Shown here: piece by piece, positions 3,658 through 62,500 of the stretch
Layout: each line of letters opens with the position of its first letter
Position numbering within the stretch: position 1 is the stretch's first letter
Assembly (NCBI GenBank): GCA_046565705.1
Contig: JBKHYE010000123.1
Span: forward strand, 1,075-65,074
DNA length: 64,000 nt
Source: Actinomycetes bacterium
Lineage (GTDB): Bacteria; Actinomycetota; Actinomycetes; Mycobacteriales; SCTD01
Reading direction: 5' to 3'
Translations under genes and position numbers: made by a program
The notes under the pieces: model-generated
What the model was told of the DNA's origin: nothing
The model's input: only the letters and a program-made list of their open reading frames with translations
Database searches by the model: none

Positions 3658-4078
3658 AACGACCCCCCCAAGTTGGCCGCCGAACTCAACAGCACAGAGT
3701 GGTCGACTCGCGCCGCAACGTGTTCGCCTCACTCGTACGGGTGAATGGCCACCTGGCCGCCCGCGGCTCGTCCATCGGTGAGAGACCAGACGCCAGAGCA
3801 GACCTGTCCTCGCATGAGGCGCCACAGGCGTCCCGCTGCACAACTTGCGGGCGACGCAGCTGCCCGGAGGCAACGAAGCCCAGACAGCACCCCGCGCGCA
3901 TGACACCGCAGTCAAGAGCCCCGCTTAACGAGCAGATGCGGCGCCGCGTGCAGGCGCGGGATGAGCCGGGCGCACAGTTCAAACCTGCTTCGACGAGCGA
4001 CTGCTAACGGGGAGCGTTAGCAATTGAGATCAATCGATGCGCCTTGCGAGCCGGCAAAGTGCCTCTGACCTGCGGTTT

Positions 4079-44500: not shown

Positions 44501-47500
44501 GAAGCCGGGCGCCGTCCGGAACGAGCCGTCACCGCGGATCGCGAAGTTGCGGCCCTCGCCGGTGAGCTCGAGCCCGGCGATGGTGACCCTGGCCGCAATC
44601 GAGCCGAAGTAGATGAGGTCGCTGCGCGTGCCGGCCGCTCCGGTGTCGAGCCGCACCGCGCGCGCCGTGAGCGTGACGAAGCTGCCCAGCCGAACCTCGA
44701 GGGTGTCGACGTCGATGAGCAGCGCCTGCACGACCCCGCGATCGAAGACGAGGGTGATGCGGAACGCCTCGTCGTCCGGGTCGTCGGCCGTCTTGCGGTC
44801 GGTGAGGCTCGCACCGAACGCCCGGCCCGGGAACAGCGACGCGCCACCGGTCGCCAGGTAGATGCTGCCGGTGAAGGCCGCGTCGGTGCCGCCGAAGGTG
44901 ACCGTCAGGCCCTGCACGCCGATGCGGATGTCGTCGAGCTCGAGGATGCCACCGAAGGTGATCTTCGGATCGGACGTCGCCGTCTGCAGCGCGTTCGGGT
45001 GGGTGCTCGGCAGGCCGTAGGCCAGCTCCGCCGTGCCCAGGGTGAAGCCGTTGCCGCGGACGACGAGGCCGGGCAGCAGCGTGGACCCCGCCGCCGTGGC
45101 GTCGCACCCGGCGGTCTCGCCGGGGTTGCAGTTGGTCTGCGTGGCCGGGTTGAACGGCTTGAGGCTGCCCGTGATGTTGAACCGCGGGAACGTGATCGTC
45201 GCGGTGTTGATGCGCAGGAGCTCCTGCGTGATCGGACCCTTCGGGTCGTAGCCCATCGAGATGCCGGTCGCCCGCACCTCGACGACGTTCGGGACGACGA
45301 CCTCGAGGCCGCCGATGACCAGGCTCCACTTGCCCGTGGGCTGCACCCGGACGTTGCCCGACAGCAGCCCGAGGACGTCGACCGCCAGGTCGAACGTGCC
45401 GAGGATGCCGGTGAGGTCCGCCGTGATGGCGCTGCCGGACTGCGACGTCGCGCCGGCCGCGCCGCCGAACGCCAGGCTGGCACGGTCCATGCTGATCGCG
45501 ATCGTGAGCACGACCATGCCGTCGGCGAAGCCGAAGTCGGCGATGCCGACGCTGGGGTTCACCAGGCTGAGCGGCCCGAGCACGGTCGTGCCGGGTGCGG
45601 TGGTGGCCCCGGGCGCGGCCGGGTCGACCGTGAACGTCTGGGTCAGCCCGGTCTCGTTCCAGATCGGGACGGACGGCGTCCCGCTGCGCCAGCCGTTCGC
45701 GACGAAGGTCACGGTGACCTGACCGGCGCTGAACAGCCCGACGGCGTTGTTCGGGTTGGTGTCCCGCAGGAAGTACCGGAGCGTCACCCGGGTGGCCGTG
45801 AGCTCTCGGCCGGCGATGATCAGCGGGGCTCCGACGATGAGCGGCCGCTGGCTCGCCGTGTCCTTCGCGAGATCCGCGGTGACGGCGCCGCTGAACACGA
45901 AGGGCGCCTGCGTCTGGCTGAGCAGGTGGTCCTTGTCGATGGCCGACCCGTCGTTGCTGACGAAGGTGACGTCGAGGTACCGCTGGCCGTTCAGCACGGT
46001 GGCGGTGACGGACGTGCCCGCGGAGGGGCTCGCGAGCACCGCCGTCGGCTTCGGCTTCGAGCCGGCACCGGTCCATGCCGAGACCAGGAAGATCAGCTGC
46101 TCGTCGGCGGCGTTCGTCGCCCCGATCTCGTCGCTGAACGAACCCGGCAGGAACTTCACGGTCAGCACGCCGGTGCCGGTCGGCGCGGCGCCGGTGAAGG
46201 TGTACAGCCAGGTGTTCGGCTTGCCGGCCACCGGAGTCGGGATGCCCGTCACGGCGTACTGCGTGCTGCCGAGCCAGACCTCGATCTCGGCGGCGGTGTC
46301 GGTGATGGTCTCCGGCCGGATGCGCTCGTTGTTGACCGGGTTGACGACGACCTCGATGCCGCCGGCCAGCTTGCTCGCCACGATCGCCGCCCGGTTCAGC
46401 GGGCGCCGGACGGGGGGCTTGGTGGTGTCGGTGACGTCGTCGAGCCAGGTGCCCAGGTCGGCGGTGAGGAACAGCCTGGGCTTGGTCGTGGATGCCGACA
46501 GGGCCGTGTCGGTGCTCGGGAAGATCTCGAAACCGTCCACCCGGAAGGTCTGCAGCCGGAAGCCGGTGACCGGCGAGATGGTGAAGGTGCCGTATCCGGC
46601 GAGCTTGACGACGGTGGTGCCGTCCACCTTCACCGCGACCGCCGCCGGCGCCAGCGCGATGTCGAGCGTGCCGTCCGGCTTGCGCCGCAGCGACATCGTG
46701 CCGGACAGGGTGAACACGTTCGCGACGGAGATGACCACGTCGGTGGCCTCGAAGCGGAAGTGGTCCGGCTCGATGGCACCGGCCAGGCTCGGTCCGCCCG
46801 GCATGCTCACGCCCGGCAGCTGGCCGGGCCCGGTGCCCATGGCCACCGTGCTCCCGGTGGTGTTGACCTGGAAGCCCACCTTGCCGGACACGACCAGGCC
46901 GGGCAGCCCGAGCAGGCGCAGCTCACCCACGACGCGGATGGCGAAGCCGCTCGTCGTCCCCTGCAGGAACTCCACGGTCGCGTTGGTGACGAGCACGCCG
47001 ATGGCGTCGGGGTGGTCCGCCCCGGTCGTGGCGTTGCGTGACGGTCCACGCCCGATGAAGATCTCGAGGTTCGTGCCGGTGAACCGGCCGCCCGCGATGC
47101 GGAAGTCACCGCGGATCTCGAGGAAGTCGCCGAAGTCGAACTCGAGATCCTGCAGCTCGAAGACGTACTTCTGGGTGCCGGTCATGGCCGGGATGTCGAC
47201 GGCCACCGTCGTCCCGGCGACGTCGATGGACTCCTGGACCCGTCGGCTGGTCGGGCCGGTGGTGTTGAACTGGACGACGATCGTGCCGCCGGCCGAGAAC
47301 AGCCCCGGGATGGTGATGTCGGCCCGGCCGCCGAGCTGGCCGGCGACGCCGTCAGATGCGATGACGATGGTGCCGAAGCCACCGGTCAGGCCGGGGATGC
47401 TCTGCCCGCTGTTGCCGGTGATGGCGGCGTTGGTGAACGCGATGATCGTGATCTCGCGCGGCGTCCCCGGAGATCCGCCGGTGGTCGGCGTCGACATCCG

Positions 47501-50500
47501 CCGCTCGATGGCCACGTTGGCGCTGACGGTGAGCCCGCCGAGCGTGAGCGACGCGCCGGTGAGCGACACGCGGAAGAACGGGCCGGCCGGCAGCACGACG
47601 GGCACCCCGGCGACGGTCTCGTTCACCGCGACGCGGGTGTTGTTGACCTGGATCTGGGCGACACCGACGGAGAACCCGGTGTTCCCGCCGAGGAGGTTCC
47701 GGAGACCATCCGTGACGGCGACGGCGCCGGAGAACGTGCCGGCGACGCCTCCGGGGAGCAGCAGGACCACGGCCGAACCGTTGGTCAGGCGCACGCCCAC
47801 GTCGTCGCTCTGGTCGACGGTGCCCTTGTCGTCGCCGAGGAACAGCTCGACGTCGAACAGGCCGATCCGCACGGCCTTGGTACCGGCTGCCGTCGTGACC
47901 TGCTCGAAGAAGACGACCGCCTGCAGCGACTGGCCGAACACGCTCATCGAGACCCGGCTGAGGGCGATGCTGTTCGCGGGGTCGGCACGGGTGCCGGCCT
48001 GGACGCGCAGGTACGGCGAGCCCGGTCCGGGCACCGTGCTGAACGCGACCTTGACCGTCGGGACGGTCAGCTCGAAGGCGTCGCCCAGCGCGAGGTCCAG
48101 CCCGAACGACGCGTTGACCTCGCCGGTGACGCCGTTGTCGGCCACGACGAGGAAGCCGCTGGTGATGGTGAGGTTCACCAGGTTGCTCGAGCCGTTGCCG
48201 AGGCTGAAGGTCACGTTCGAGAGCGTCAGCTGCAAGGTGCCGTCGCCCTGCTTGGCGAAGGTGAACGAGCCGCGCAGCTCGACGGCGGCGATGCGCAGCC
48301 GCACGTCGGTGCCGGCGATCCGGAAGGTCGGCGTCCCGGAGACGCTCGTGCGGGTGTTCAGCGACACCTCGAAGCCGCCGGTGACGGTGACACCCGGGAT
48401 GTCCACGCCGATCGTCGCGGCCAGCGTGCCGACCACCCCGTCGGCGTGCAGGGTGAACTGCCCGTGGCCGTTGCTGACCGTGACCACGTCGCGGGTCGCC
48501 GACCCGAGCCGCAGGCCGACGTTCGCGAACCGCAGCCGGGTCTCCACGACGTCGTCGCCGCCGGCGAGCGCCCCGTCGGCGCCGAGCGAGGTGGTGATGC
48601 GCTCGACCGTGACGTCACCGGTGAGGCGCTGGCCGGCGATCGCGACGACCAGCCCGGTCACCGAGACCTTCACGTACTGGTTCCCGGGCAGGACGAGCGT
48701 GGACGTCACCCCGTCGAGCACGAAGGTCTCGTTCACCGCGACCGGGACGAGCTTGCCGGCGACCGTGCGGCGCATGTCGTTGAACTCGACGGCGACCGTC
48801 GCGGACAGGGCGCCGCCGGCCGGGTTCGAGAACCCGGGTACCACGAGCGTCGCGGTGCCGGACAGCCGGCCCGCCACGCCGTCGGGCGTGATGACCAACC
48901 GGGCCGACCCGTTCGAGAGGGTGAAGCCGACGCCGCCACCGGGGCCGAGGTACAGGCCCGCGCGCTCGATGGCGATCCGCACGACGGAGACGTCGTCGGT
49001 GGTGTTCGTGACGCCGTCCGGCCCGGCCGAGCGCACCTGCTCGAAGGCGTAGACGCCGCTGAGGGTCTGGCCGAAGGCGGTGAGCCGGGCGAGCTTGAGC
49101 CCGCCGGTGTCGCTCGGGTCGTAGACGCCGACCTGCAGGCGCAGGAAGCGCCCGGCCGGCAGCGTCGCACCACCGACGGCGACCTGCGCGGGCGTGGTGT
49201 TGAGCTGCAGCTTCACCCCGGCCGGGTCCGAGCCGGTCGTCAGCGTGAGCACGCCGGGGAAGCCCACCAGCGTGACGGCGGCGCTGAGGTTGGCCGCCAC
49301 GCCGGCCGGCGTCAGCAGCACCTCGCCGTTGACGGTCGTGATGGATAGGCCGGCTGTCGTCGTGCCGAGGGTCAGCGCCGCGTTGGTGACGGTGATCTTC
49401 GTCGTCCGCGCGTTGTTGGCCGGGTCGACGGTCTGGGTGACGGCGAAGCCGCCGGACAGCCGCTGGCCGGCGATCTCGAGGACGACGCCGGTGCCGCTGA
49501 TCGCCAGGTGCTTGGCGGCCATCGTCGGGATGACGACGTTCCCTCCGCCGACGACGATCGTCCGGCCCGTGAAGGTCGTGGTGGTCCCGGTGTTGACCTC
49601 GACCCGGAAGGTGCCCTCCAGCACCACCCCTGGGACGTGCACGGCGACGGTCCCGCCGAAGACGCCGGACACGCCGGTGGCCACCGAGCTGGTCACGACG
49701 AAGGCGCCGGCGCCGTTCGTGACGCTGACCAGGTCGGTCGTCCCGGTGCCGATGCGCAGGGTGATGTTGCGCAGGCCGAGGACCGTCTCGTACGGGCCGG
49801 TGCCGATCCGCTCGAAGCTGACGTCGCCGGACAGGGTCTGGCCGAGCAGCGAGAGCGTGATGCCGAGGCCCTCAACCCGGACGTAGGTGCCCGCGACCAG
49901 GTCCAGGGCGACGGTCGCGGCGCCGATCGACACCGTCTGCACGATGCGCTGGCCGGTCTGGTTCACCGTGAGGCGGAACGTGCCGGCGACGACGACGTCC
50001 GCGGGCAGCAGGCCCGCTGTCGACAACGTGCCGGAAACGGTCCCGGCCGGTCCGGCGCTGCTCAGCACCACGACGCCGGTGACGTTGCCCAGCACCGTCA
50101 GGGTGCCGAACCGCAGGGTGCCGCCGGTGATGGCGAGGACCGTGCGGGTCTCGCCGCCGCTGGTGGCGCGCTCGAAGCTGAGCCCGCCGGTGAGGGTGAT
50201 GTCGCCGCCACCGATGGTGACCTCGAGGTTGGCGCCGGTGACCTTGAGGTACGGGCCGCCCGGCAGGCGGGTGCCGTTGGCAAGGGTCACGGGGACCGCG
50301 CCGTTGTTCACCTGGACCGTCAGCGTGCCGGAGACCGCGAACCCCGGCGCCGAGATGCTGCCCACCACGGTGAGCTCGCCGGCCAGGCCGGTGCTGCCCA
50401 CCTGCAGCGCGCCGCTGAGCGTCAACGAGCCCAGCCCGCCACCGAGGGCCAGGGTGGCCCCGGTGACGGTCACGGTGACCAGCCGCGAGCCGTCGGTCTG

Positions 50501-53500
50501 CGTGCTCTGCGTGACGTCGAAGGTGGCCACGGTGAGCGCGACGTCTGCGACGCTGAACGCCACGTTGGTGCCGCGCACCTTGAGGTAGGGGCCCGCCTCC
50601 GCGATCGCCAGCGTGACCGCACCGACCTTGACGCCGGCGTCGTAGCCGCCCGTCGTCGTGCGGGAGCGGCGCATCGGCAGTGCCGCGCCGCCCTCTGAGG
50701 TGACCAGCTCGAGCACGCCGTCGCCTCCGAGGTCGCCGAGCGCGAAGCCACCGGCGAGGGTGGTGCCCGCGGCCAGCAGCTCGGTGCTCGTCGACGCGAA
50801 GCCCTGCCAGACGCCCGTGTCGTCGTGCGGCCCGCGGTTGAGCCGGGCGAACAGTCCGCCACCGCTCGTGGTGCGCACCAGGTCGACCCGCCTGTCGCCG
50901 TTGACGTCGACGAGCAGCACCCGGGTCGTGTCGCTCGTCCCCGGCTGCCCGCTCGGGGTGGCGAAGGTGGTGAACCCACCGGTGCCGTCGCCCTTGTACA
51001 GCGCGTCCGTGCCGGAGCCGCCCCGGCCCACGAACAGGTCGAGCTTCGCGTCGCCGTCGACGTCGGCGAGGGCCAGCACCGCGGTGGCCGGCACGGTGAC
51101 GCCGGTGAGCGCGGCCCCCGCGCCGAAGCCGAGCCAGCTGCTGTCGGTGCTGCTGTTGCCCAGGCCCTGGTACATCGTCACCGTGGTGCCGCCGGCGGTG
51201 CGGACGAGCAGGTCGGCGGCGACGACCGGGGCGGTGTCCTTGACGTTGCCGATGACGATCGACGCGGCGTTGCTGCCGAGCGCCACCCCGACGGTGGCCT
51301 TGGCGAAGGCCCCGGCACCGGTGTTGCGCCAGACCTCCGTCGCGCCGCTCGACCCGACCACGACGTCGGGCTTGCCGTCGCCGTCCAGGTCGCCGACGGC
51401 AAGGGCGGTGACGGCGGCGGGGGCGGTGAGCACGACGAACGGCGGGACGCCGTCGAACGGGTCGCCCACGCCGTCGTTCACGTAGAGCAGCACGGTGCTG
51501 GCCGAGGCGACGAGCAGGTCGGGCCGACCGTCACCGGTGACGTCCGCCAGCGCGAGAGCGGTGGTGCTGGTCGGTGCGGTGCCGAACGTCACGGTCTCCG
51601 AGACCGTCGCGCCGCGGCTGTTGAACAGCACCGAGAACGTGCCGGACAGCGTCACGCCGGGGATCGTCACGGCCACGGTGCCCGTCACGGTGCCGGCCAG
51701 CCCGGCACCTGCCCCGCTGCCCGACTTCAGCGACAGCAGGCCGCTGCCCTCGGACAGCGTCACGTACGCGGTGGTGCCGTCACCGAAGGACGCCGTGACG
51801 TTGCGCAGCAGGATGCGCACGACGGTGTCGACGCCGACGGCGGCCCTCTCCACCACGACGTCGCCGGTCAGCCGCTGGCCGCCGAGCGTCAGCACGATGC
51901 CGATGCCCTCGACCCGCAGGTAGGGCCCGCCGGGGACGTCCAGGGTGATGGTGCTGCCGCCGGCGGTCACCGACTGCCGCACCGCCGCGACGCCGGTGTT
52001 GACCGCGACGGTGAACGTGCCGGTGAACGCCGCCTGGCCGGCGCCGGGCGGCACCAGCAGCGAGACGTTGCCGGTGATGCGCCCCGCCACGGTGCCGTTG
52101 TTGACGACGAGCAGGCCGGTGCCCCCGGTGAGGCTCGCCCCGGCGCCCGCAGCGCCGATCGTGAGCGACACCTGGTCGGCGAAGATGCGCAGGATGCGCG
52201 GCGCTTCGGTGCCGGCGGGCGCGCTGGGGCTGACCTCGCCCCGCACCTGCTCGAAGCCGAAGATCCCCGACAGCGTCTGGCCGCCGATGGTCAGGGTGAG
52301 CGGCGACGCCGTCTCCGCCCGCACCGACCCCGGCTCGAGGACGCCGTACGGGCTGATGGTGACCCGGTCGGGCGTGGTGTTGATGCGCAGCGTGACCGAC
52401 AGGCTCGAGCCGCTGAACGGGTTGCCGGGCAGGGCGAGGACGAGCGACCCGCTCACGACACCGGCCACGCCGGTCGGGCGGATCTCGAAACTGCCGCTGC
52501 CGATCCGCACGACGACCGGGTGCACGCCGCCGCTCGGCTCGCCGAGCCGGAGGTCGACCGGGCTGCCGCCGGTGAGGGCGTCGGTGCCCAGCCGGACGGT
52601 GATGACGCTGCCGACCCTGGTGACGGCGATCGAGCCCGACAGCTCCTGGCCGCCGAAGCCGAGGGTGACGTTCTGGGCCACGATGCTCTGGGTGTTGTTC
52701 TCGACCGAGGTGCCGTGCAGCGACTGCGTCGAGCCGGTGTTGTTGTAGCGGAACGACAGGCTCGTGCCGGACAGCGTCAGGCCGGGGATGCCGATGACCG
52801 CGATCGAGCCGGTCAGGACGAAGGCGTACTGGCCGGACGCGGGGTTCATGCCCTCCCCGGCGACGTTCGTGAGCAGGAAGCCGCGCGCGGACGGGTTGAC
52901 CTGCGACGGCGTGCTGCTGTCGCCGTCGAGGTAGTAGGGACCCTCGCCGAGGAACAGCGTGACGTTCGAGATCGTGAACGCCGTCGCCTGCCAGGTGATG
53001 CTGCCGTAGAACTCGAACGGGCCGAGCTGCAGGGCGAGCTTGGCGCTGATCTCGACGAACGGCTCGACCGACGGCGTGTCCTGCCGGACCTCCGTCGCGG
53101 AGAAGACGATCGGCAGCGCGACGCCGTTGACGAGGACGAGCTCGTCCACCGCGCCGGCGGTGCCGTTGACGCGCGCCTTGATGTCGGCGCCGACGGAGAA
53201 CCCGCCACCGCTGCCGGCGTCGGCCTGGCCCGAGATGACGCCGGCCGCGCCGTCGGCCGTGAGCACGAACGCGCCCTGACCGTTCTCGATCTTGACCGCG
53301 TCGGTGCCCAGCGTGACGGTCACGCCGGAGAACCCGATGAGGGTGATCTCCACGGGCGTGTTGTGCAGCGCGCGGACCGGGCCGGACGCCGTCCCCGCGA
53401 TGACGAGGTCGAGGTCGCCGTCGCCGTCGGCGTTGACGAGCGCGACGAGCGCCGCGGCGCTCCCGGCGACGGTGGTGACGCCGACCTTCAGCGTCACCGG

Positions 53501-56500
53501 CGACGGCGCCCGCAGGCCGAGCCAGGTGCCCGCGCCGTCGACGCCCTTGTTGCGCATCAGCCGCGGGCCGTCGCTCGCCGTCGTGAGGACCGCGTCGAGC
53601 CGGCCGTCGCCGTCGACGTCGCCGAGCAGCGCCCCGGTCGCGCCGGTCCCGGTGCCGAGGTCGGTGGCCGCGATCTGCCAGGTGGCGTTGCTCACCGTGG
53701 CGCCCTCGAGCGCGGCGGCAGCGGCCGTGCCGAAGGCACCGCGGACCAGGCCGGTGAACGACGTGCCGGTCTTGCCGGTGTAGAACACCTTCTCGCTGCC
53801 GAGCAGCAGCACGCCGCCGTCGGCGAAGCCGGCGGTGCTCGCGACGGTGACCGTCGTGGCGGTGGCGTTCAGGCCACCGGTGCCGGTGACCGTCGTGGAG
53901 ACCGCGGCCGCCGGGAGCACGTTGCGGCCACGCCACAGCTGCGACGTGCCGGAGCGGGTGACCAGGACGTCGGTGAAGCCGTTGCCGTCGAGGTCACCGG
54001 CGACGGCGCCGGTCGCCGCCCCCGAGGACAGGAGGGTCGGCGGGGCGAAGAGCAGGCTGGTGACGACGGCGCCGGTCGCGACGCTGGCCGCGGCGCTGGT
54101 CGAGTCCAGAGCCCGGGTCAGGCCGGTGAACGAGGTGCCGGTCGTGCCCGCGTAGCGCAGCCGCTCGCTGCCGTTGACGATCAGCCAGCCCGACGGCGCG
54201 AACCCGGCGGTGCTCGTCACCGCGAGAGCCGTCGAGGCGCTCGTGAACGCACTGGTGGCCACCGCCGTCGTGCCGCCGCCGACGCCGGTCCAGACCGAGA
54301 CACCGGCGCTGCCGGCCACGACCAGGTCGCGCAGGCCGTCGTTGTCGAGGTCGGCCAGCAGCAGCGAGGTGACGCCGGTGGTGGTCAGCGTGCGGGCGTG
54401 CGCGGTGGTGCTCATCCCGAGCCACTGGCCGACCACGTTCACCGGCGCCTGGTGGCTCAGCGGCGCGTCACCACGAGCCGAGACGAGCAGCAGGTCGCCG
54501 TCCTTGCCGCTGTACGTGATCGGCTCGGTGCCGTCGACGACGACCGTGCCGGACGCGGCCAGCGGGGTGGCGCTGTCGACGGCGAGGTAGCCGACGGCGA
54601 CGGTCGCCCCGGCGGCCCGGTCACCCACGCTCGTGCCGTACTGCCCGCGCACCAGGCCGCCGAGAACGCCGGGAGCCACCGAGGTGTACCGGACGAACTC
54701 GGCGCCGATCTTGGCGATGCCGCTCGCGGCGAAGCCGGCGGTGCTGGTGACCTCGGCGAAGCCGACCGTGACGGTCGCGCCGCTGAGGTGGCCGGCGGCG
54801 GCCGTGCCGTTGACGCCGCGCACCAGCCCGTTCAGCGTCGTGCCGCTGAGGGAGGCGTACCGGATGAACTCGGTGCCGATCCGGATCAGGCCCGTGGCCC
54901 CCAGCCCGGTCGCGCTGCTCAGCGTCAGCGACGTGCCTCCCGAGCCGAGCGCGGCGGTGAGCGTCGGCAACGTGGCGGGAGCGGAGGTTCCCGAGGCGAG
55001 CTGCTGCGCGAGCGTGCTGCTCGCCGGCACGACGTCGGCGGCCAGGTCGGCTGCGAGCGTCGCCGTCGCGTTGCCGCCGTTGAGGAAGACCTTCGTCGTC
55101 GTCGAGCCGCTCGCGCCGATGACCAGGTCGGCGAAGCCGTCGCCGTTCACGTCACCGACCGTGACAGCCGAGGCGTCCGGCGTCGAGAACGCCGACCCGG
55201 ACAGGCCGTAGCCGAGCCACTGGGTGACCGTCGCGCCGGCGGCGTGCGCCGTCGCGCCGGCGAGCCGGCTCACGCCGGTGAGGGTGCTGCCGGTCTTGCC
55301 GGTGTAGGCGAGGTACTCGCCGCCGATGCTGACGACGCCGGCCGAGGCGAAGGCGCTCGCGTCGGCCAGGGTGAGCGTCGTCGCGGTGGCGCTGATGCCG
55401 GCGGCCAGCGTGGAGGTGCGGTTGCCGAGGTTGCGGTAGACGGCCGTCTGGCCGGTGCTGCCGTTCTTGGCCACGACGAGGTCGGGCCGGCCGTCACCGT
55501 CGAGGTCGGCGAGGGCGACGGCGGTCGTCGTCGTGCCGGTGCCGCCGACAAGCGACACCGAGGCCGTGTTGGCGAAGGTCCCCGCGCCGGTGCCGCGGAA
55601 GACCGAGACGCCGCTGCTGGTGCCGACGAGGAGGTCGACCAGGCCGTCGCCGTCGACGTCGGCGACGCGCAGCACCGTGGGGGTGACCGTCGGACCGACC
55701 GGGTTGGCGTCACCGAAGCCGGGCTTGGTCGAGCGCTCGACGGCGAAGCTGCCGGTGAAGCCGGTGCCGGCGACGCTCAGCGTGGCGCCGGTGACCTCGA
55801 ACCGCGCGTACGGCCCGGCCTTGAGCAGCGTCGCGCCGAGCTGCACCGGCAGCGACGTCGTGTTGATGGCGAGGACCGTGGTGCCGCCGGAAAGGGAGGC
55901 GTTCGAGCCGAAGGTGAAGCTGGGCGTGCCGGTGACGAGCGCCGCGACCCCGTTCGGGGTGATGCGGATGGCGCCGCTCCCGGTGAAGGAGGCGAACGTC
56001 CCGAGCGTGATGCTCAGGCCGGTCACCGTGACGTTCACCTGGACGCTCGGCGCGGTCCCGGTGCGCTCGAAGGTGAACGACGCTGCCGACACACGCACAC
56101 CGGCGACCGTCAGGTAGGTGCTGCCGGCGGTGAGCCGGATGGTGCCGGCCGCGAGGCCGCCCTGGAGGCCGCCGGTCGTGTTGAGGTCGAGCGTGACCGT
56201 GGCGCCGAGCTGGACCCCCGGGACCTCCACGACCAGGTCGGCGTTCGTGATGCTGCCGTACACGCCGCCGGCGACGGTGGTCGCTCCGGTGCGACGGGCC
56301 CCGATGACGGTGAAGCTGCCGCTGATGTTCGTCGCGCGCACGATCGGCGCCGTCGGCGTCCCGAGCGAGATCTCGCCACCGGTGATGGCCAGCGTCACCG
56401 AGCCCGGTGTCGTGCCGGTGCCGTCGACCTTGGTGAAGGTGAACGTGCCGGAGATCGTCTGGCCCGCCACCGTCAGGCTGACGCTGGAACCCGTCACCCG

Positions 56501-59500
56501 CAGGTAGCTGCCGCTCGCGACGGTGAGGGTCGTCGTGACGCCGCCGACGACGAAGTCCTGGGTGAAGCCGCCGGCACCGGTGTTGAGCTCGAGCGCGAAG
56601 GTGCCGGCCAGGGCCACGCCGGGCACGCCGGTCAGCGCGACGGTGCCAGTGGCGCGGCCGGCGACGAAGCCGCCGGCGAGCTGGAACAGGGCCTCGCCGT
56701 TGGTCAGGCTGACGAGGTCGCGGGTGCCGTCGCCGAGGGCGGCGCTGACGTTGCTCGCGGCGATGCGGACGACCATGACGTCGTCGTTCACGTTGCCGTT
56801 GGCCGGGTTGGGGCCGGCGACGCCGTCGGCACCCAGGCCGGTCACGACCCGCTCGAAGGAGACGTCGCCGCGCAGCGCCTGGCCGGCGACCACGAGGGTG
56901 CCGCCGATGACCGCGACGCGGACGAACGGCCCGGCGGGCACGTTCAGCGACAGCGTGGTGCCGCCGACCGCCAGGCTCGTGGCGACTGCCGCCGCCGTGG
57001 TGTTGATCTGCAGCCGGACGTCACCGGCGAGCGACAGCGCCGGGCCGGCGGTCACGCTGAGCGTGGCGGCGAGCGAGCCGGCGACGCCCTCCGGCGTCAC
57101 GACGAACAGGCCGGTGACGCCGGTGGCCCGCACGGTGCCGAGCAGGTCGAGCGAGCCGCCGCTGACGGCGAAGCGCACGACCTTGGTGCCGGCGGCGGTC
57201 GTGGCCTGCTCGACCGTGAACGAGCCGGCCAGCGTCTGGCCGAGCACCGTCAGGGTGACCGGCGCGAGGGCGGTGCCGCCGGTGACCCGCAGGTACGGCC
57301 CGGCCGGCAGCCCGAGCGCCGCCACGCCGGTGGTGTTGACCGCGAGCCCGAAGGTCCCGCCCAGCGCGAACCCGGGCACCGACACCACCAGCGTGGCCTC
57401 GACCGAGCCCGCCAGGCCGGCGGCGGTGAGGAGCAGCTGCGCGGGCGTGGAGGTCTGGGTGACTTGGACCAGCGGCGCGGTGTCGGTGCCGCCCAGGCGC
57501 AGCCGCAGGTTGCGGGCGGTGACGGCGAGCACGACGGCACCGGCGGCGTCGACGGTGCGGGTGAGCTCGACGTCGCCCGACAGGCTCTGGCCGACGAGCG
57601 ACAGCGTGATGCCGGTGCCGACCACCCGCAGGTACGGGCCGCCCGGCAGCGCCAGCGACACCGGCGTCGGCGAGCCGCCGACGAGGAAGGACGTGCTGAC
57701 CGGCGTCGTCGTGGTGTTGACCTGCACCGACAGCGTGCCGCTGATCGCCACCGACGGGACCGACAGCGAGACGGTGCCGCTGACCGTGCCGGCCAGCCCA
57801 CTCGGGCGGACGACGAACAGCGCCGTGCCGCCGGTGACCGACAGCATGCCGCCGATCGACAGCGAGGCGTTGGTGACGGCCAGGCGCACGACCTGCGTGT
57901 CGTCGCCGCCACCGGGCACGCCGTCGGCACCGAGGTCGGTGGCGCGCTCGAACGCGACGTTGCCGGTGATGGTCTGGCCGAGGACGGTGAGGGTCAGGCC
58001 GGTGCCCTCGAACCGCAGGTACGGGCCGCCGGGCAGCGCGACGGCGAGCGTCGCGGCGCCGACGGCGACGCTCGTGCTGACGGCGGCCGAGCCGGTGTTG
58101 ACGGCGACCGACAGGGCGCCGGACAGCGCGACGCCGCCGGGCAGGTTGACGGCGATCGTGCCCGACAGGCGGCCGGCGACCGCGGTGCCGGTGGACACGA
58201 GGACGCCGGAGCCGCCGGTGAGCCGGACGCCCGCCGCCGCCGTGCCGAACAGGACCTCGACCCCGGTGAGGCCGACCGTCGTGACGGTCGAGCCGTCGGA
58301 CGCCGTCGACCGCTCGAGGGCGACGTCGGCGGTCAGCGACGCACCGGCGAGCGCGAGCGTGACGCCGCTGCCGCTGACCCGCAGGTACGGGCCCGCCGGC
58401 AGGTCGAGCACCACGGTGCTGCCGGCGACGTCGATGCTGCGGCTGACCGCGGGCGTGCCGGAGTTGATCGAGACCGCGAAGGCGCCGGTGAAGACCACGC
58501 CCGGCACCGTCACGGTGATGCCGCCGCTCACGCGGCCGGCGAGCCCGGCTGCGGTGGAGACGAACGCGGCCGTGCCGTTGGTGACCGTGACGGCGCCGCC
58601 GGCGAGGGTGGCGCTGACGCCGGTGGCGCCGACGACGACGTCACCAGCAGGCGCCGTGTCGAACGAGAAGCTGCCGGTGAGCGACTGCCCGGCCAGCTGC
58701 AGGGTCGCGCCGCTGACCGAGAAGGACCTGACGACCGCGGAGGTCGGGAACAGCAGCTCGATCCCCGGCCCGGTGCTGCCCGGCACCGAGAGCACCAGCG
58801 GGACGGCCGCGGTGGCGCCGTGCACCGGCGCGCCGGTGGTGTTCACCCTGACGCTGACCGTGCCGCCCGAGATCACGACACCGGCGATGCCGATGAGGCT
58901 GACGCTGCCGGTGGCGACGAGCGCGTGGCCGGCGCCGGCCTGCACGACACCGATCCGGGCGCCGGACAGCAGCACGCCGCTGGCGAGCGGGTTGATCTCG
59001 CCGCTCTCGAGCCGGGCGGGGCCGCGCCCGAGGAAGATCGTCAGTCCCTCGCCGGCGAACCGGCCGCTGCTGTCGAAGGAGACGTCGCCCTCGATCGTGA
59101 GGAACTCACCGATGGTGAGCCTGGCGCCGAGCAGCGCCACCTCGACGAGCGGCGTCGAGACCTGAGCGAACTTGACGACCAGCGTGCGCCCGCCGACCTG
59201 GATCGCCTCGTCGATGTCCTCGCCGGTCACGGTGATGACCCGCACCACGACCCGCGCGCCGGCCGACACCGGACCGGCCGCGATGCTGGCGGTGCCGTTG
59301 AGGTAGCCGGCGATGCCGGTGCTGCGGAGCAGGAAGGCGCCCTCGCCGCCGGTCAGCTGCACGCTGTCGCCGCCGACCGTCGCCGACACGTTCGACGCGC
59401 CCACGACCGCGACCTCGTTGCCGGCGCCGTCGAGCCGGCGCTCGAACGCGAAGTCCCCGGACAGGGACGGGCCGGTGGCGGTCAGGCTGAGGGCGGCGCC

Positions 59501-62500
59501 GACCACCTCGACGCGCAGGTACGGCCCGGCCGGGACGGACAGGACGGTCGAGGTCGTGCCGACCGTGAAGGTCTCGGCGACCGCCGCGGCCCCCGTGTTG
59601 ACCGCGAGCCGGACGGTGCCACCGGTCAGCGTCACGCCGCCCGCGGCGACGGTGACGCCGGTGACCAGCCGCCCGGCCACCCCTGCCGACGTGAGCAGCA
59701 GCTGACCGCTGGTCGGGCCGACCGTCACCGGACCGAAGCTCAGCAGGTTCTGCGGGACGCTCGACACCAGCGCCGGCGTCACGGCCGCTCGGACGACGGT
59801 CGCGCCCGCGGCCGTCGTCGTCTGCTCGAACGAGATGCCGGTGCGCAGCGTCTGGCCCGCCACGACGACCTGCACGTCGGCGCTGCCGACGGCGACGCGC
59901 TGCTGGCCCGGACGCGTGTCGAACGACGCGGTGAGGGTGGAGGCGATGCTGATGCCCGGCACGGCGAAGCTGACCGGGCCGCTGAACGAGCCGTGGGCAC
60001 CGGTCGCCGTCAGCGTCAGGGTGAGCGACGCGGGGCCGACGGCCAGCAGCCCGCCGCCGAGCGACAGCGACGCGTTCGCCACCGTGAGCACGGTGTCGGC
60101 GCCGCTGCGGACGACGGTGACGTCGCCCGACACGGACTGGCCGAGGACCGAGACCGACAGCCCGGTGCCGACGAACCTCACGTAGGTCTGCCCGCTGCCC
60201 GAGGCCGGCAGCACCAGCGGCACCGAGACGCCGCCGACGGTGAAGATCTCGTTGACCGCCTCGTCGAGGCTGCTGACCTGCAGGGTGAGGGCTCCGGCGA
60301 CCCAGACGCCCGGCACGTTCACCGCGACCGTGCCGCGGATCTCGCCGGCGACGCCGGCCGCCTTGAGGAGCACGACACCGGTGCCGCCGGAGAGCGACAC
60401 CACCGGCGTGCCGCCGGCGCCGAGGGCGAAGGTGAGGTTCGCGACCGCCACCCGGACGACAGGCGTACCGCCCTGGACAGCGGTGCGCTCGATCGCGAGG
60501 TCGCCGACCAGCGTCGGCCCAGCGGTGCCGATCCGGAACCCGGCGCCGAGCGCCTCGACCCGCAGGTACGGGCCCGCCGGCAGGTCGTCGACCGCTGCGG
60601 CACCGGTGTTGAGCGCGACCGAGATCGTGCCCAGCTCGAGCGCCGACAGGGTCGCGCCGGTGTCGACCGTGCCGGAGACGCGCCCGGACACCCCGGCGGC
60701 CGTGACGGTGAACGCGCCGTTCACGCCCGTGACGGACAGGATCGTGTCGCCGCTCTCGGCGGTGGCGCCGGTGCGCAGGGCGAACGATCCGCCGGTGACA
60801 GCGACCCGGGTGGTCGTTCCGCCGCCGGCGGTGACGCGCTCGACCGACAGCGTCCCCGCCGACAGCAGGATGCCGGCGAGCCGGATGCCGATCGGGCCGC
60901 CGGCCAGCTTCAGGTACGGGCCTGCCGGCAGGCTCACCGAGCCGGCCTGCTGCGCGATCGCCGTGGTGTTGAACGCGACGGTCAGGGCGCCGGTCTCGAT
61001 CGCCACGCCGGGCAGGTTCAGTGACAGCGAGCCGGTGATGCTGCCGAAGGCGCCGGTCGTGCCGACGGTGAAGGTCGACGTCGCGCCGGTCTGGCCGATC
61101 GCCGGGCTGGCGAAGGTGCCGATGACCGTGGCGCCGTCGCGCAGCTCGAGCCGGACGTTCGTCGTGCTGACGGTGAAGCCGCCGGCCGTCCGGGCGAAGC
61201 CGAGGTCCGCGGTGAACGACGTGCCGCCGACCGCGATCGTCAGGCCGGTCCCGCGCACCTGCACGAAGGGCACGGTGGCGCTGGGCGCCCGCTCGTCCGG
61301 CGTGGACGCCGTGCCGTCGGTGAAGCGCACGATGACGTCGCCGTCGCCGTCCGGGAAGGCGATCGTCTGGTTCACCGCGGTGGTGAGCTCGTTGACCCGG
61401 ACGACGATCAGGCCGGTGACGGACAGACCTGGCAGCCCGACGAGCTCGACCGTCCCACGGACGTCGAGGGCGTACTTGCCACCGGACTTCCAGAAGCCGA
61501 CCGTCGCGCCGGTGAGGAGCAGCCCGCGCGCCAGCGGGTTGCGCGTGCCGTCGGACAGCAGGGCCGGCCCGTCGCCGACGAAGACGGTGAGGTTGCGGCC
61601 GGCGAACCCGCCCTCGCTGCCGGTGAAGTCACCGGTGATCGTGACGTAGTCACCGATCGTGAGCGTGCCGCCGAGGATCGACAGCGAGAAGACGATCGCG
61701 GCGTCGGTGAACACGACGCGCAGGTCCTGCCCGCCGACCGACACCGTCTGGTCGACGGCCGAGCCCGAGTTGTTGACGCGCACGACGACGTTGCCGCTGA
61801 TCGACAGCGGGCCGGTGTTCGCCGACACGGTTCCGGAGACGTAGCCCGCGATGCCGCCGGGGACGGCGGGCGTCGCCGCCGGGTCGGCCGGCACCACGAC
61901 GAGTGCGCCGGTGACGTTGCTGATGGTGACGGAGTCGGCGGCGACGGTGATGCGGCCGTTGCGGATGGCGAGCACCGTGCTGGCGCCGGACCGGCTGAAC
62001 AGGAAGGTGCCGGAGATCGTCCCGAGTGCCGGTGAGCCGAGCGTGATGGCGTTGGCGGCGTCGACGGTGACCTCGACGCGCGTGCTGCTCGCGGCGAGGG
62101 TGCGGCCGCCGACGACGGCGGCGGTGGTGCGGGTGTTGACGTCCACCCGGGCCGCGATGCCCGTGGCGCTCAGCACGCCCGGCACCTTCAGCGACGCCGT
62201 GGCCGTGAGGGTGCCGGCAGTGCCGCTGGCCGCGATCTCCAGCACGCCCGTGGAGACGCGCACCGACGCGATGCCGTTCGGCAGCACCAGCGAGACGCCG
62301 GACAGCGACACGGTGACGACGGCGCCCGCCGCCGTGGTCGTGCGCTGCAGCCGGATGTCACCGGTGAGCTCCAGCCCGGCGATCGTCAGCGTGACGTTGA
62401 TGCCACCGACCCGCACGGTCGACGCGGCCAGCGCGACGCCGCTGACCGTCTGCGGGGTCGGGGTGGTGTTGATCTCGACGCGGACGCCGCTGGACAGCGA

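What the first reader, a model, noticed from the sequence alone, without database searches (positions are those of the whole stretch)
53345..55680. Seven-blade FG-GAP propeller embedded in the repeat array
Exactly seven D-x-(D/N)-G-(D/N)-G-x-x-D-(L/V)-(L/V)-(V/I) calcium-loop blades occur. That number would close an integrin-alpha-like propeller. However, the blades are spread over ~780 aa because extra modules are inserted between them. A propeller decorated this way inside a fibre is unusual and could be the ligand-binding head of the protein.
Basis: partly seen in the sequence, partly recalled or inferred. Interest (0 to 1): 0.65.

Follow-up and report, generated by a model that had tools for sequence, protein, structure and literature searches.

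The report
Seven-blade calcium propeller with inserted modules
A giant bacterial surface-fibre protein contains a genuine seven-blade, calcium-binding "integrin-type" propeller. Six copies of a small module also found in phage tail and baseplate proteins are spliced into its loops, which makes it an unusual variant of a common adhesion domain rather than a new kind of thing.

Summary
It lies on the minus strand, inside an ORF of at least 13,482 codons (23552..64000) whose N-terminus is outside the window. Residues 2722-3520 carry exactly seven FG-GAP blades by Pfam and by a local blade HMM. Each blade has a DxDxDG-type Ca loop.

Six copies of a ~58-aa beta module separate the blades, and this module occurs nowhere else in the protein. 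Every insert sits in the same loop, between strand 3 ('N.G') and strand 4 ('W.G'). That places them on the Ca-loop face, opposite the face where the chain enters and leaves.

Two distant homologues, a Solirubrobacteraceae MAG and a metagenome fragment, also have seven blades but only two and one inserts. Blade number is therefore conserved and insert number is not.

The module has no Pfam, NCBIfam or PDB match. It does match PHROG baseplate and virion families and predicted caudoviral structural proteins.

AlphaFold gives confident blades (pLDDT 86-93), low-confidence inserts and pTM 0.60. I had no coordinates and Foldseek TM-scores were poor, so ring closure is inferred, not shown.

A second cluster of six blades lies 590 aa downstream, so 'exactly seven' is true only of this cluster. 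Verdict: new variant of a known kind. An adhesive or glycan-binding head is likely but untested.

The parts
23552..64000 (-). Giant ORF that carries the feature. At least 13,482 codons; the N-terminus lies beyond the window end; the stop codon is at 23552-23554.
   Evidence: frame open to 64000, GC3 0.97. Pfam finds only FG-GAP in the first 8,900 aa. The C-terminal third has 3 Calx-beta, RTX repeats and a weak M10 match. HEIGHVLGLEH at aa 13316, and a C-terminal hydrophobic helix followed by RRR.
53330..55726 (-). Propeller A, aa 2722-3520: seven FG-GAP blades plus six inserted modules. It sits between two complete ~285-aa fibre repeat units.
55568..55693 (-). Blade 1 (aa 2733-2774), Ca loop DVDGDGLVD.
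   Evidence: Blade HMM i-E 3e-16; pLDDT ~90.
55409..55540 (-). Blade 2 (aa 2784-2827), Ca loop DLDGDGRPD.
   Evidence: Blade HMM i-E 4e-18; pLDDT ~90.
55217..55384 (-). Insert module m1 (aa 2836-2891), in the strand 3-4 loop of blade 2, between 'RNLGN' and 'WLGYG'. This is the only insert position shared by all three homologues.
   Evidence: Module HMM i-E 6e-22; homologues.
55055..55186 (-). Blade 3 (aa 2902-2945), Ca loop DVNGDGFAD.
   Evidence: Blade HMM i-E 4e-16.
54938..55054 (-). Ala/Ser/Thr/Pro-rich linker (aa 2946-2984) leading from blade 3 to the triple insert.
   Evidence: Sequence. AlphaFold predicts helices here at low confidence.
54758..54937 (-). Insert module m2 (aa 2985-3044), first of three tandem modules in the strand 3-4 loop of blade 3.
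   Evidence: Module HMM i-E 2e-26; its N-terminal half has pLDDT 65-83 in the full model.
54587..54757 (-). Insert module m3 (aa 3045-3101).
   Evidence: Module HMM i-E 2e-24.
54422..54586 (-). Insert module m4 (aa 3102-3156), the most divergent copy. It is followed by 'WLGM', which returns the chain to blade 3.
   Evidence: Module HMM i-E 1e-22; 27% identity to m6.
54260..54385 (-). Blade 4 (aa 3169-3210), Ca loop DLDNDGLRD.
   Evidence: Blade HMM i-E 4e-14.
54053..54235 (-). Insert module m5 (aa 3219-3279), in the strand 3-4 loop of blade 4.
   Evidence: Module HMM i-E 5e-25.
53903..54028 (-). Blade 5 (aa 3288-3329), Ca loop DLDGNGFTD.
   Evidence: Blade HMM i-E 8e-16.
53678..53860 (-). Insert module m6 (aa 3344-3404), in the strand 3-4 loop of blade 5. 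This copy was modelled on its own.
   Evidence: Module HMM i-E 2e-26; model pLDDT 70.8; BFVD matches; PHROG matches.
53522..53653 (-). Blade 6 (aa 3413-3456), Ca loop DVDGDGRLD. No insert; its short 'NKGVDGAGTW' loop shows the uninterrupted form of the insertion site.
   Evidence: Blade HMM i-E 6e-16.
53336..53464 (-). Blade 7 (aa 3476-3518), Ca loop NADGDGDLD.
   Evidence: Blade HMM i-E 2e-15; pLDDT ~90.
50639..51577 (-). Second, compact FG-GAP cluster (aa 4105-4417). Six blades, no inserts, one degenerate Ca loop. It is outside the finding but in the same protein.
   Evidence: The homologue P0238 has seven blades at the equivalent place; L001 has none.

Best explanation
Residues 2722-3520 of a giant, C-terminally anchored surface-fibre protein form one Ca2+-stabilised, seven-bladed, integrin-type (FG-GAP) beta-propeller. 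The host is a high-GC bacterium, probably a Solirubrobacterales-like actinobacterium.

Shown:
- There are seven blades, each with a DxDxDG-type loop between strands 1 and 2.
- Six copies of a ~58-aa beta module are spliced into the strand 3-strand 4 loops of blade 2 (one copy), blade 3 (three), blade 4 (one) and blade 5 (one).
- Blade number is conserved across homologues, while insert number varies (6, 2 and 1).
- The module is homologous to modules of phage baseplate, tail and virion proteins.

Inferred from standard propeller topology:
- The 1-2 and 3-4 loops lie at the same end of each blade. The seven Ca sites and all six modules therefore crowd one face.
- The polypeptide enters before blade 1 and leaves after blade 7 on the opposite face, next to each other.
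- The propeller is thus a side knob on the fibre whose outward face is a calcium-rigidified platform displaying the modules.

Inferred function: an adhesive, probably glycan-binding, head. The propeller provides a rigid scaffold, and the phage-type modules provide or extend the binding surface. Their copy number changes quickly between lineages.
For: - Blade identity and count: Pfam FG-GAP_3 and FG-GAP hits far above cut-off; seven blades by the local HMM and none in the inserts.
- Solved relatives: a profile of the seven-blade alignment that includes the query matches solved seven-blade propellers. These are PVL lectin (9e-24), CRTAC1, TcB (YenB/TcdB2), AAL2 lectin and integrins alphaIIb, alphaV and alpha5.
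- Structure model: blade cores pLDDT 86-93 and pTM 0.60 even though 45% of residues are below pLDDT 50. The best Foldseek PDB hits are all FG-GAP propellers at probability ~1.0.
- Homologues: L001 (Solirubrobacteraceae MAG) has 7 blades and 2 modules. P0238 has 7 blades and 1 module. In every case the insert lies between 'N.G/LNQ' and 'W.G'.
- Modules: exactly six, found only here in the protein.
- Phage relatives of the module: PHROG baseplate wedge, virion structural and tail fibre families, E down to 1e-8. BFVD matches at probability 1.0, TMq 0.6-0.72 and 30-52% identity.
- Loop geometry: PMC3192720 states that the Ca site of integrin-type blades is built from the 1,2-loop plus a glycine of the 3,4-loop, at the end of the blade opposite the FG-GAP motif. 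It also states that bacterial examples carry the Ca motif in all seven blades.
- Surface-adhesin context: Calx-beta, RTX repeats and a C-terminal hydrophobic anchor.
- Lectin precedent: PVL and AAL2, among the closest solved relatives, are GlcNAc lectins according to their PDB titles.
Against: - Closure was not seen directly. No coordinates were available, and Foldseek TM-scores to solved propellers were only 0.2-0.3 with rmsd 13-24 A.
- The inserts are poorly modelled (pLDDT mostly below 50). The isolated module reaches only pLDDT 70.8 from an 8-row alignment.
- Nothing tested here addresses binding.
- The module has no solved or functionally characterised relative. Its phage relatives are annotated as structural proteins, not as receptor binders.
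- The N-terminus and secretion signal are outside the window, so surface exposure is inferred.
- The alignment used for the model was selected so that the seven query blades lined up with seven-blade proteins, which favours a seven-blade solution.
Confidence: 0.62

Rival explanations
1. A structural node rather than a binding head. The propeller is a Ca2+-dependent folding and rigidity element that punctuates the fibre, for example to ratchet export or set its geometry. The inserted modules are neutral or shielding decorations, like the decoration domains of phage and flagellar proteins.
For: - Two propeller-like clusters interrupt a monotonous ~285-aa repeat array.
- The second cluster has no modules.
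- L001 lacks the second cluster, so these elements are dispensable or variable.
- Phage relatives of the module are annotated as structural proteins (baseplate wedge, sheath, virion protein).
- One module homologue lies in a flagellar hook locus.
- The protein has other Ca-binding structural repeats: RTX and Calx-beta.
Against: - Blade number and Ca loops are conserved at ~35% identity between homologues, and the blade-2 insert is kept in all three. This suggests selection on more than bulk.
- The closest solved relatives include lectins and integrins, which are binding domains.
- Multiplication of modules on a single exposed face is what avidity-driven binding surfaces look like (inference).
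Confidence: 0.24
2. The seven blades do not close into one ring. They form an open arc, or exchange blades with the six-blade cluster 590 aa downstream (13 blades in all). On this view the number seven is not structurally meaningful.
For: - Closure was not directly observed.
- The downstream cluster has only six detectable blades, which invites complementation.
- The large inserts could hinder packing.
Against: - L001 has seven blades and no second cluster within 3,300 aa, so seven suffices on its own.
- P0238 has 7 + 7 blades.
- Among the generic FG-GAP hits, blade counts of 7 and 14 recur, and several proteins show a long gap after the seventh blade.
- pTM 0.60 with 45% of residues at low confidence is hard to reach unless the confident blades form one rigid body (inference).
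- About 590 aa of fibre repeat separate the two clusters.
Confidence: 0.08
3. The propeller is catalytic, for example a polysaccharide-degrading propeller, and the modules act as substrate-binding accessories.
For: - Some propellers with Ca sites are enzymes. Aldos-2-ulose dehydratase appeared among the weak Foldseek hits.
- A metzincin HExxHxxGxxH motif elsewhere in the protein shows that enzymatic parts can ride on this fibre.
Against: - No enzyme family was hit in Pfam or NCBIfam for this region.
- The best sequence and fold relatives are lectins, integrins, CRTAC1 and TcB, none of which is catalytic through the propeller.
- No conserved non-Ca acidic or His cluster is evident in the blades (sequence).
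Confidence: 0.04

Closest known systems
Bacterial integrin-type FG-GAP/VCBS seven-bladed beta-propellers (Pfam PF01839 and PF13517; described in PMC3192720)
   Same: Seven ~50-aa blades. Each has a DxDxDG-like Ca loop between strands 1 and 2, with hydrophobic strands on either side. Pfam scores are far above threshold. Occurrence in large secreted or surface proteins is also typical.
   Different: Typical members are compact, ~350-400 aa with 45-60 aa blade spacing. Here four of the seven strand 3-4 loops carry 1-3 extra domains, stretching the propeller to ~800 aa. None of the 120 proteins listed in the first search carries the module, and of the 150 top representatives only P0238 does.
Integrin alpha subunits with an inserted alpha-I (vWA) domain
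   Same: A seven-bladed FG-GAP propeller that hosts an inserted ligand-binding domain after blade 2 and that carries Ca-binding blades. The one insert shared by all three homologues here also follows blade 2.
   Different: - The integrin insert is a ~200-aa vWA domain placed between blades 2 and 3 (PMC3192720). From my own knowledge it sits on the ligand-binding face, away from the Ca loops.
- Here the inserts are ~58-aa beta modules, unrelated to vWA, placed within blades in the 3-4 loop on the Ca-loop face, and present in up to six copies.
- There are no thigh or calf domains, and no beta subunit is evident.
Fungal FG-GAP lectins PVL and AAL2 (PDB 2bwr, 4up4, 4tqj)
   Same: They are the best solved sequence relatives of the blade profile (E 9e-24 to 3e-20) and among the best fold hits. 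They show that this propeller type can bind sugars directly.
   Different: They are free-standing ~400-aa proteins without inserts. Whether the sugar-binding residues are conserved here was not tested.
Unnamed module of caudoviral virion proteins (PHROG 2885 and 708 'baseplate wedge subunit', PHROG 4406 'virion structural protein'; BFVD entries such as the Synechococcus phage Bellamy 'baseplate wedge initiator')
   Same: The six inserts share sequence with these (30-52% identity over 42-58 residues) and share predicted fold (TMq 0.6-0.72, probability 1.0).
   Different: In phages the module is part of tail, baseplate or other virion proteins. Here it is grafted into the loops of a cellular propeller. 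No Pfam or NCBIfam model and no solved structure exists for it, so its function is unknown in either setting.
Giant repetitive bacterial adhesins with Ca-binding repeats (RTX adhesins of the LapA/MpIBP type)
   Same: A protein of more than 10,000 aa, made of a long repeat array with interspersed globular domains. RTX and Calx-beta Ca-binding repeats are present. It is anchored at one end.
   Different: - The fibre repeat (~285 aa) matches no Pfam family.
- The anchor is a C-terminal hydrophobic helix with a basic tail in a probably Gram-positive host, not an N-terminal outer-membrane plug.
- The type I secretion signal and the N-terminus could not be examined.

Membership tests
FG-GAP / integrin-type beta-propeller (PF01839, PF13517) | Family HMMs match above the curated gathering score. 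| tested here: met
   FG-GAP_3 scores 183-191 bits against a cut-off of 26.9. FG-GAP scores 118-137 bits against a cut-off of 22.1.
FG-GAP / integrin-type beta-propeller (PF01839, PF13517) | Seven consecutive repeats (blades). | tested here: met
   The local blade HMM finds seven in aa 2733-3518 and none in the inserts. Seven are also found in homologues L001 and P0238.
FG-GAP / integrin-type beta-propeller (PF01839, PF13517) | A DxDxDG-like Ca-binding loop between strands 1 and 2. In bacterial members it is present in all blades. | tested here: met
   All seven blades carry the loop. Variants are N at position 4 in blade 4 and N at position 1 in blade 7. Actual Ca binding was not tested.
FG-GAP / integrin-type beta-propeller (PF01839, PF13517) | The blades pack into one closed seven-fold ring. 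| tested here: inconclusive
   AlphaFold2 gives blade cores at pLDDT 86-93 and pTM 0.60. No coordinates were available. Foldseek TMt was only 0.2-0.3 against solved propellers, although the hit probability was ~1.0.
FG-GAP / integrin-type beta-propeller (PF01839, PF13517) | Sequence-profile relationship to solved propellers of the family. | tested here: met
   The A4 profile against PDB sequences gives PVL 9e-24, CRTAC1 3e-23, TcB 3e-22 and integrin alphaIIb 8e-19. The single sequence alone gave no hit at E<=1e-3.
Metazoan integrin alpha subunit | Thigh and calf domains, a transmembrane helix with the GFFKR motif, and optionally a vWA alpha-I domain between blades 2 and 3. | tested here: not met
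   No Integrin_alpha2, VWA or related Pfam hit anywhere in the protein. The inserts are ~58-aa beta modules located within blades.
Phage virion-protein module (PHROG 2885, 708, 4406, 22827) | The module sequence matches the family HMMs. | tested here: met
   Best E 9.8e-9. Five of the six copies hit phrog_4406 and four of six hit phrog_22827. tblastn of one copy against GenBank phage genomes found nothing at E<=1e-3.
Phage virion-protein module (PHROG 2885, 708, 4406, 22827) | Same fold as the phage copies. | tested here: met
   The module model (pLDDT 70.8) against BFVD gives dozens of hits at probability ~1.0, TMq 0.57-0.72 and 30-52% identity. Both sides of the comparison are predictions, not solved structures.
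RTX-type giant adhesin | RTX nonapeptide repeats plus a type I secretion signal and a retention module. | tested here: inconclusive
   RTX repeats are present (E 4e-17, six stretches). The secretion signal was not assessed, the N-terminus is outside the window, and no T1SS genes are among the neighbours scanned.
Sortase-anchored (LPXTG/LAXTG) Gram-positive surface protein | An LPXTG or LAXTG motif followed by a hydrophobic helix and a basic tail at the C-terminus. | tested here: not met
   The hydrophobic helix and RRR tail are present, but the only nearby motif is LAEFG.

The most novel reading that the evidence does not exclude
The Ca-loop face of this propeller is an evolvable display platform. 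Phage-derived receptor-binding-like modules have been grafted into equivalent strand 3-4 loops. Their number has expanded lineage by lineage, from 1 to 2 to 6, including a tandem triple in one loop. This would tune the avidity or specificity of a giant adhesin, and would be a cellular counterpart of the modular exchange seen in phage tail fibres.
Probability: 0.2. Interest if true: 0.6.

Novelty: new variant of a known kind. Interest (0 to 1): 0.4.

Why it matters
FG-GAP propellers are among the commonest adhesion scaffolds in bacteria and are the ancestors or relatives of the integrin head. This case shows that the scaffold can tolerate domain insertions in four of its seven strand 3-4 loops, next to its calcium sites, and that the number of insertions varies between relatives.

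It also ties a small, uncatalogued phage virion module to a cellular surface protein. The module has no Pfam, NCBIfam or PDB entry. That gives a handle for working out what the module does in phages, and for defining it as a family.

If the modules bind ligands, the domain would be a natural example of multivalent loop-grafted display on a rigid propeller, which is of interest for protein engineering. If they do not, this remains an ordinary adhesin domain with decoration.

Tried and rejected
1. **Plus-strand reading of the coordinates.** It gives no repeats. The feature is on the minus strand.

2. **Word-indexed homologue search with the 800-aa region and exhaustive HMMER search of 1.84 billion representatives.** Both were swamped by generic multi-propeller FG-GAP proteins, with 46,167 hits at E<=1e-3. 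Only P0238 shares the architecture.

3. **Homologue searches with the module profile and with the unique C-terminal flank.** They returned only three short ORFs. The family is rare or hidden by the word filter.

4. **Metagenome scan with the C-flank.** It found one near-identical 1.6-kb contig (L082) and one distant giant ORF without a propeller (L083).

5. **Module against PDB sequences, Pfam, NCBIfam and tblastn on phage genomes.** Nothing usable.

6. **MAFFT alignments of the query with whole hits, eight-blade pieces or two-blade fragments.** These placed foreign blades on the inserts or stacked all fragments on blades 1-2. I screened row sets in the sandbox and kept one in which all seven Ca loops align and the module cores are gapped (A4).

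7. **Foldseek of the full model against PDB.** The family is right but the superposition is useless for judging closure.

8. **Foldseek of the module against PDB.** No hit below E = 1. The weak resemblances, to the F1-ATPase N-terminal barrel, tailspike N-terminal domains and a phage head-to-tail interface, are not evidence.

9. **Source-genome lookup.** An exact-sequence lookup of a neighbouring gene was not on record.

10. **Considered and rejected: that the inserts are degenerate blades.** The blade HMM finds none there, and the module profile and predicted fold differ from a blade.

11. **Considered and rejected: that the modules are recent DNA duplications.** The copies are only 27-54% identical at the protein level.

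Full report
**Where the feature is.** The plus-strand translation of 53345-55680 is featureless Arg/Gly/Ala-rich sequence. The feature lies on the minus strand, in the frame of an ORF listed as 23552..63889, 13,445 aa from the first GTG. That frame stays open up to the window end at 64000 and has third-position GC of 0.97. The true protein is therefore at least 13,482 residues long and its N-terminus is outside the window. All residue numbers below count from the GTG at 63889. The finding corresponds to aa 2737-3515.

**Checking the observation.**
- Seven Ca-loop motifs are present. They start at aa 2744, 2795, 2913, 3180, 3299, 3424 and 3486.
Three deviate by one or two residues (DLDNDG, ...DAVL, NADGDG).
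- A relaxed form of the motif occurs 7 times in the protein, against a mean of 0.012 in 2000 shuffles.
- Pfam reports FG-GAP_3 (E down to 4.5e-57) and FG-GAP (down to 1.2e-40), far above the curated cut-offs. It reports nothing else of substance in the first 8,900 residues.
- An HMM built from 12 blades of this protein finds exactly seven blades in aa 2733-3518 and none inside the long gaps.
- The same HMM finds six more blades at aa 4105-4417 (window 50639-51577), one of them with a degenerate Ca loop. 'Exactly seven' therefore describes this cluster, not the protein.

**The inserts.**
- Blade spacings are 51, 118, 267, 119, 125 and 62 residues, against about 45-60 in ordinary FG-GAP proteins.
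- The excess is six copies of a 55-61-aa unit. The consensus is ..T.LTV.STAGFAASG...IG.E..RYTGKTGT.LTGLVRG..GTAAAA...GATVT..W, with invariant G, G, E, Y, R and V (alignment A1).
- An HMM of the unit finds these six copies, and no others, in the whole protein.
- One copy follows blade 2, three in tandem follow blade 3 after a 39-aa Ala/Ser/Thr/Pro linker, one follows blade 4 and one follows blade 5.
- In every case the insert begins shortly after the 'N.G' that ends strand 3 and ends at the 'W.G' or aromatic residue that leads into strand 4.
- Blade 6 shows the uninterrupted version of the same loop: NKGVDGAGTWLG.

**Topology (inference).** In a four-stranded propeller blade, the 1-2 and 3-4 loops lie at one end and the 2-3 and 4-1 loops at the other. 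For integrin-type blades, PMC3192720 states that the Ca site is formed by the DxDxDG loop in the 1,2-loop plus a glycine of the 3,4-loop, at the end of the blade opposite the FG-GAP motif. It also states that bacterial representatives carry the Ca motif in all seven blades. Two things follow from sequence alone:
- All six modules emerge next to the Ca sites, on one face.
- The chain enters before strand 1 of blade 1 and leaves after strand 4 of blade 7, on the other face.

The propeller would then be a side knob on the fibre, with its decorated, calcium-rich face pointing away from the fibre axis. This differs from the integrin alpha-I domain, which is inserted between blades 2 and 3. From my own knowledge, that domain sits on the face away from the Ca loops.

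**Homologues.** Generic searches were swamped by ordinary FG-GAP proteins. None of the 120 proteins listed in the first search carries the module, and only one of the 150 top representatives does. Four informative relatives emerged:
- **L001**, from a Solirubrobacteraceae MAG, has an open frame through all 21.5 kb fetched. It has seven blades and two modules, after blades 2 and 4, and no second blade cluster in the following 3,300 aa.
- **P0238**, a 2,330-aa fragment, has fibre repeats, then seven blades with a single module after blade 2, then about 600 aa, then a second compact seven-blade cluster.
- **L082**, a 1.6-kb metagenome contig, is 98-99% identical to the window.
- **L083** is another giant ORF that shares the unit following the propeller but has no blades.

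Blade number is thus conserved at roughly 35% identity, while the number of inserts is 6, 2 or 1. The insert after blade 2 is the common one. The flanks of the propeller ('..PGF..' before it, 'TPV..IGF' after it) are also conserved.

**What the module is.**
- It has no significant match in Pfam (best E 0.021), NCBIfam or PDB sequences. One copy found nothing by tblastn in GenBank phage genomes.
- It does match PHROG families annotated as baseplate wedge subunit (phrog_2885, E 9.8e-9; phrog_708), virion structural protein (phrog_4406, hit by five of the six copies) and tail or tail-fibre proteins.
- An AlphaFold2 model of module m6, from an eight-row alignment, is a small all-beta domain of moderate confidence (pLDDT 70.8, pTM 0.57).
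- Against solved structures it has no hit below E = 1.
- Against predicted viral structures it has dozens of hits at probability ~1.0, TMq 0.57-0.72 and 30-52% identity. These are mostly large cyanophage or caudoviral structural proteins, including a 'baseplate wedge initiator', a 'tail sheath monomer' and YHYH-domain proteins.
- One of the two short bacterial ORFs that carry the module lies between flgD and a flgE-like gene on a low-coverage contig. This suggests a decorated hook protein.

The module is therefore a mobile small domain of exposed virion and appendage proteins. It is uncatalogued and its function is unknown.

**Structure prediction of the whole region.**
- MAFFT alignments with generic FG-GAP proteins were unstable. 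They often laid foreign blades over the inserts or dropped blade 7.
- I screened row sets offline and used one with 36 seven-blade segments cut from the hits. In it all seven query Ca loops align and the module cores are gapped.
- AlphaFold2 on aa 2691-3560 gave mean pLDDT 58.7 and pTM 0.60. The seven blade cores scored 86-93 and most insert residues scored below 50.
- I had no access to coordinates.
- Foldseek against the PDB returned the right family (CRTAC1, PVL, AAL2, ITFG2, integrins alpha5 and alphaV) at probability ~1.0. However, E-values were only ~1e-4, TMt 0.2-0.3 and rmsd 13-24 A. These long, gapped alignments cannot show closure.
- A pTM of 0.60 when 45% of residues are low-confidence suggests that the confident blades form one rigid body. 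That is an inference, and the alignment was chosen to favour a seven-blade register.
- At the sequence-profile level, the seven-blade alignment containing the query matches solved propellers strongly: PVL 9e-24, CRTAC1 3e-23, TcB 3e-22 and integrin alphaIIb 8e-19. The single sequence alone matched nothing at E<=1e-3.

**Context.**
- Residues 20-5775 are an array of ~285-aa super-repeats with partial units. No Pfam family matches them.
- Propeller A sits between complete units. The second cluster interrupts a unit.
- The C-terminal third has three Calx-beta domains, RTX repeats, a weak Laminin_G_3 match and an exact metzincin motif (HEIGHVLGLEH).
- The protein ends in LAEFG, a hydrophobic helix and an RRR tail. 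This resembles a sorting signal but lacks LPXTG or LAXTG.
- Neighbouring genes are unremarkable: a beta-helix protein, a DUF4032/Kdo kinase, an MFS transporter, a PF09826 propeller, SpoIIE, a hydrolase, an AMP-binding enzyme and an LGFP/RHS protein.
- Everything points to a giant cell-surface fibre of a high-GC, probably Solirubrobacterales-like, actinobacterium.

**Interpretation.**
- Best supported: a Ca-stabilised seven-blade FG-GAP propeller forms a lateral knob whose Ca-loop face displays six phage-type modules. It most likely serves adhesion, plausibly to glycans, given that the closest solved relatives include GlcNAc lectins and integrins.
- The main rival is a purely structural, Ca-dependent node with decorative modules.
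- Non-closure or blade sharing with the second cluster is unlikely, because L001 has seven blades and no second cluster.
- An enzymatic role has no support.

**Novelty.** An FG-GAP propeller in a giant bacterial surface protein is ordinary. Multiple, copy-number-variable insertions of a phage virion module into equivalent loops on the Ca face are not something I found among the 270 proteins listed by the first and the exhaustive search, or in the papers I read. I therefore rate it a new variant of a known kind, of moderate interest.

Noticed in passing
window 50639-51577 (-), aa 4105-4417: A second, compact FG-GAP cluster with only six detectable blades, one of them with a degenerate Ca loop. 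The homologue P0238 has seven blades at the equivalent place and L001 has none. A six-blade FG-GAP unit would be atypical.
   Followed up: partly
window 63889-64000 (-): The giant ORF's frame is open to the window end. The listed GTG start at 63889 is not the real start, and the protein has at least 13,482 residues. The N-terminus and any signal peptide are unseen.
   Followed up: partly
window ~46560-63830 (-), aa 20-5775: The fibre is built from ~285-aa super-repeats, with partial 70-130-aa units, that match no Pfam family. Propeller A lies between complete units, whereas the second blade cluster interrupts one.
   Followed up: partly
window ~23912-23944 (-), aa 13316-13326: An exact metzincin zinc-binding motif, HEIGHVLGLEH, about 100 residues before the C-terminal anchor (Pfam Peptidase_M10 match is weak). 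It could be a protease or self-processing element on the fibre.
   Followed up: no
window 23555-23700 (-), last ~45 aa: The C-terminus has a hydrophobic helix and an RRR tail like a Gram-positive sorting signal, but the only motif upstream is LAEFG, not LPXTG or LAXTG.
   Followed up: no
L081 8001-8213 (ENA contig ctg72151_4x_l): A 70-aa ORF carrying the insert module lies in a flagellar gene cluster, between flgD and a flgE-like gene, on a 4x-coverage contig. It is probably a frameshifted hook protein with decorating domains, which means the module also occurs on flagella.
   Followed up: partly
L082 (JGI Ga0247704_1009401), against window 52790-54391: A near-identical (98-99%) metagenome contig covers blades 4-7. 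It differs in length by 34 nt near window 53654-53660, which shifts the frame. This is either an assembly error or a strain difference.
   Followed up: partly
L083 (JGI Ga0265314_10000169), whole 12.9-kb locus: Another giant open frame of at least 4,310 aa carries a unit 35% identical to the segment following propeller A, but it has no FG-GAP blades or modules. The fibre repeats therefore occur without the propeller.
   Followed up: partly
window 1-3924 (-): A second large ORF runs off the window start. It has four LGFP repeats, a CBM96-like region and an RHS repeat, so it is another probable cell-envelope or toxin-type protein.
   Followed up: no
window 50825-61024 (+) and other long antisense ORFs: Very long ORFs (up to 3,399 aa) lie antisense to the giant gene. 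They appear to be artefacts of the 70-75% GC content, since the long 50825-61024 ORF fails the third-position-GC/second-position-GC screen that the giant gene passes.
   Followed up: partly
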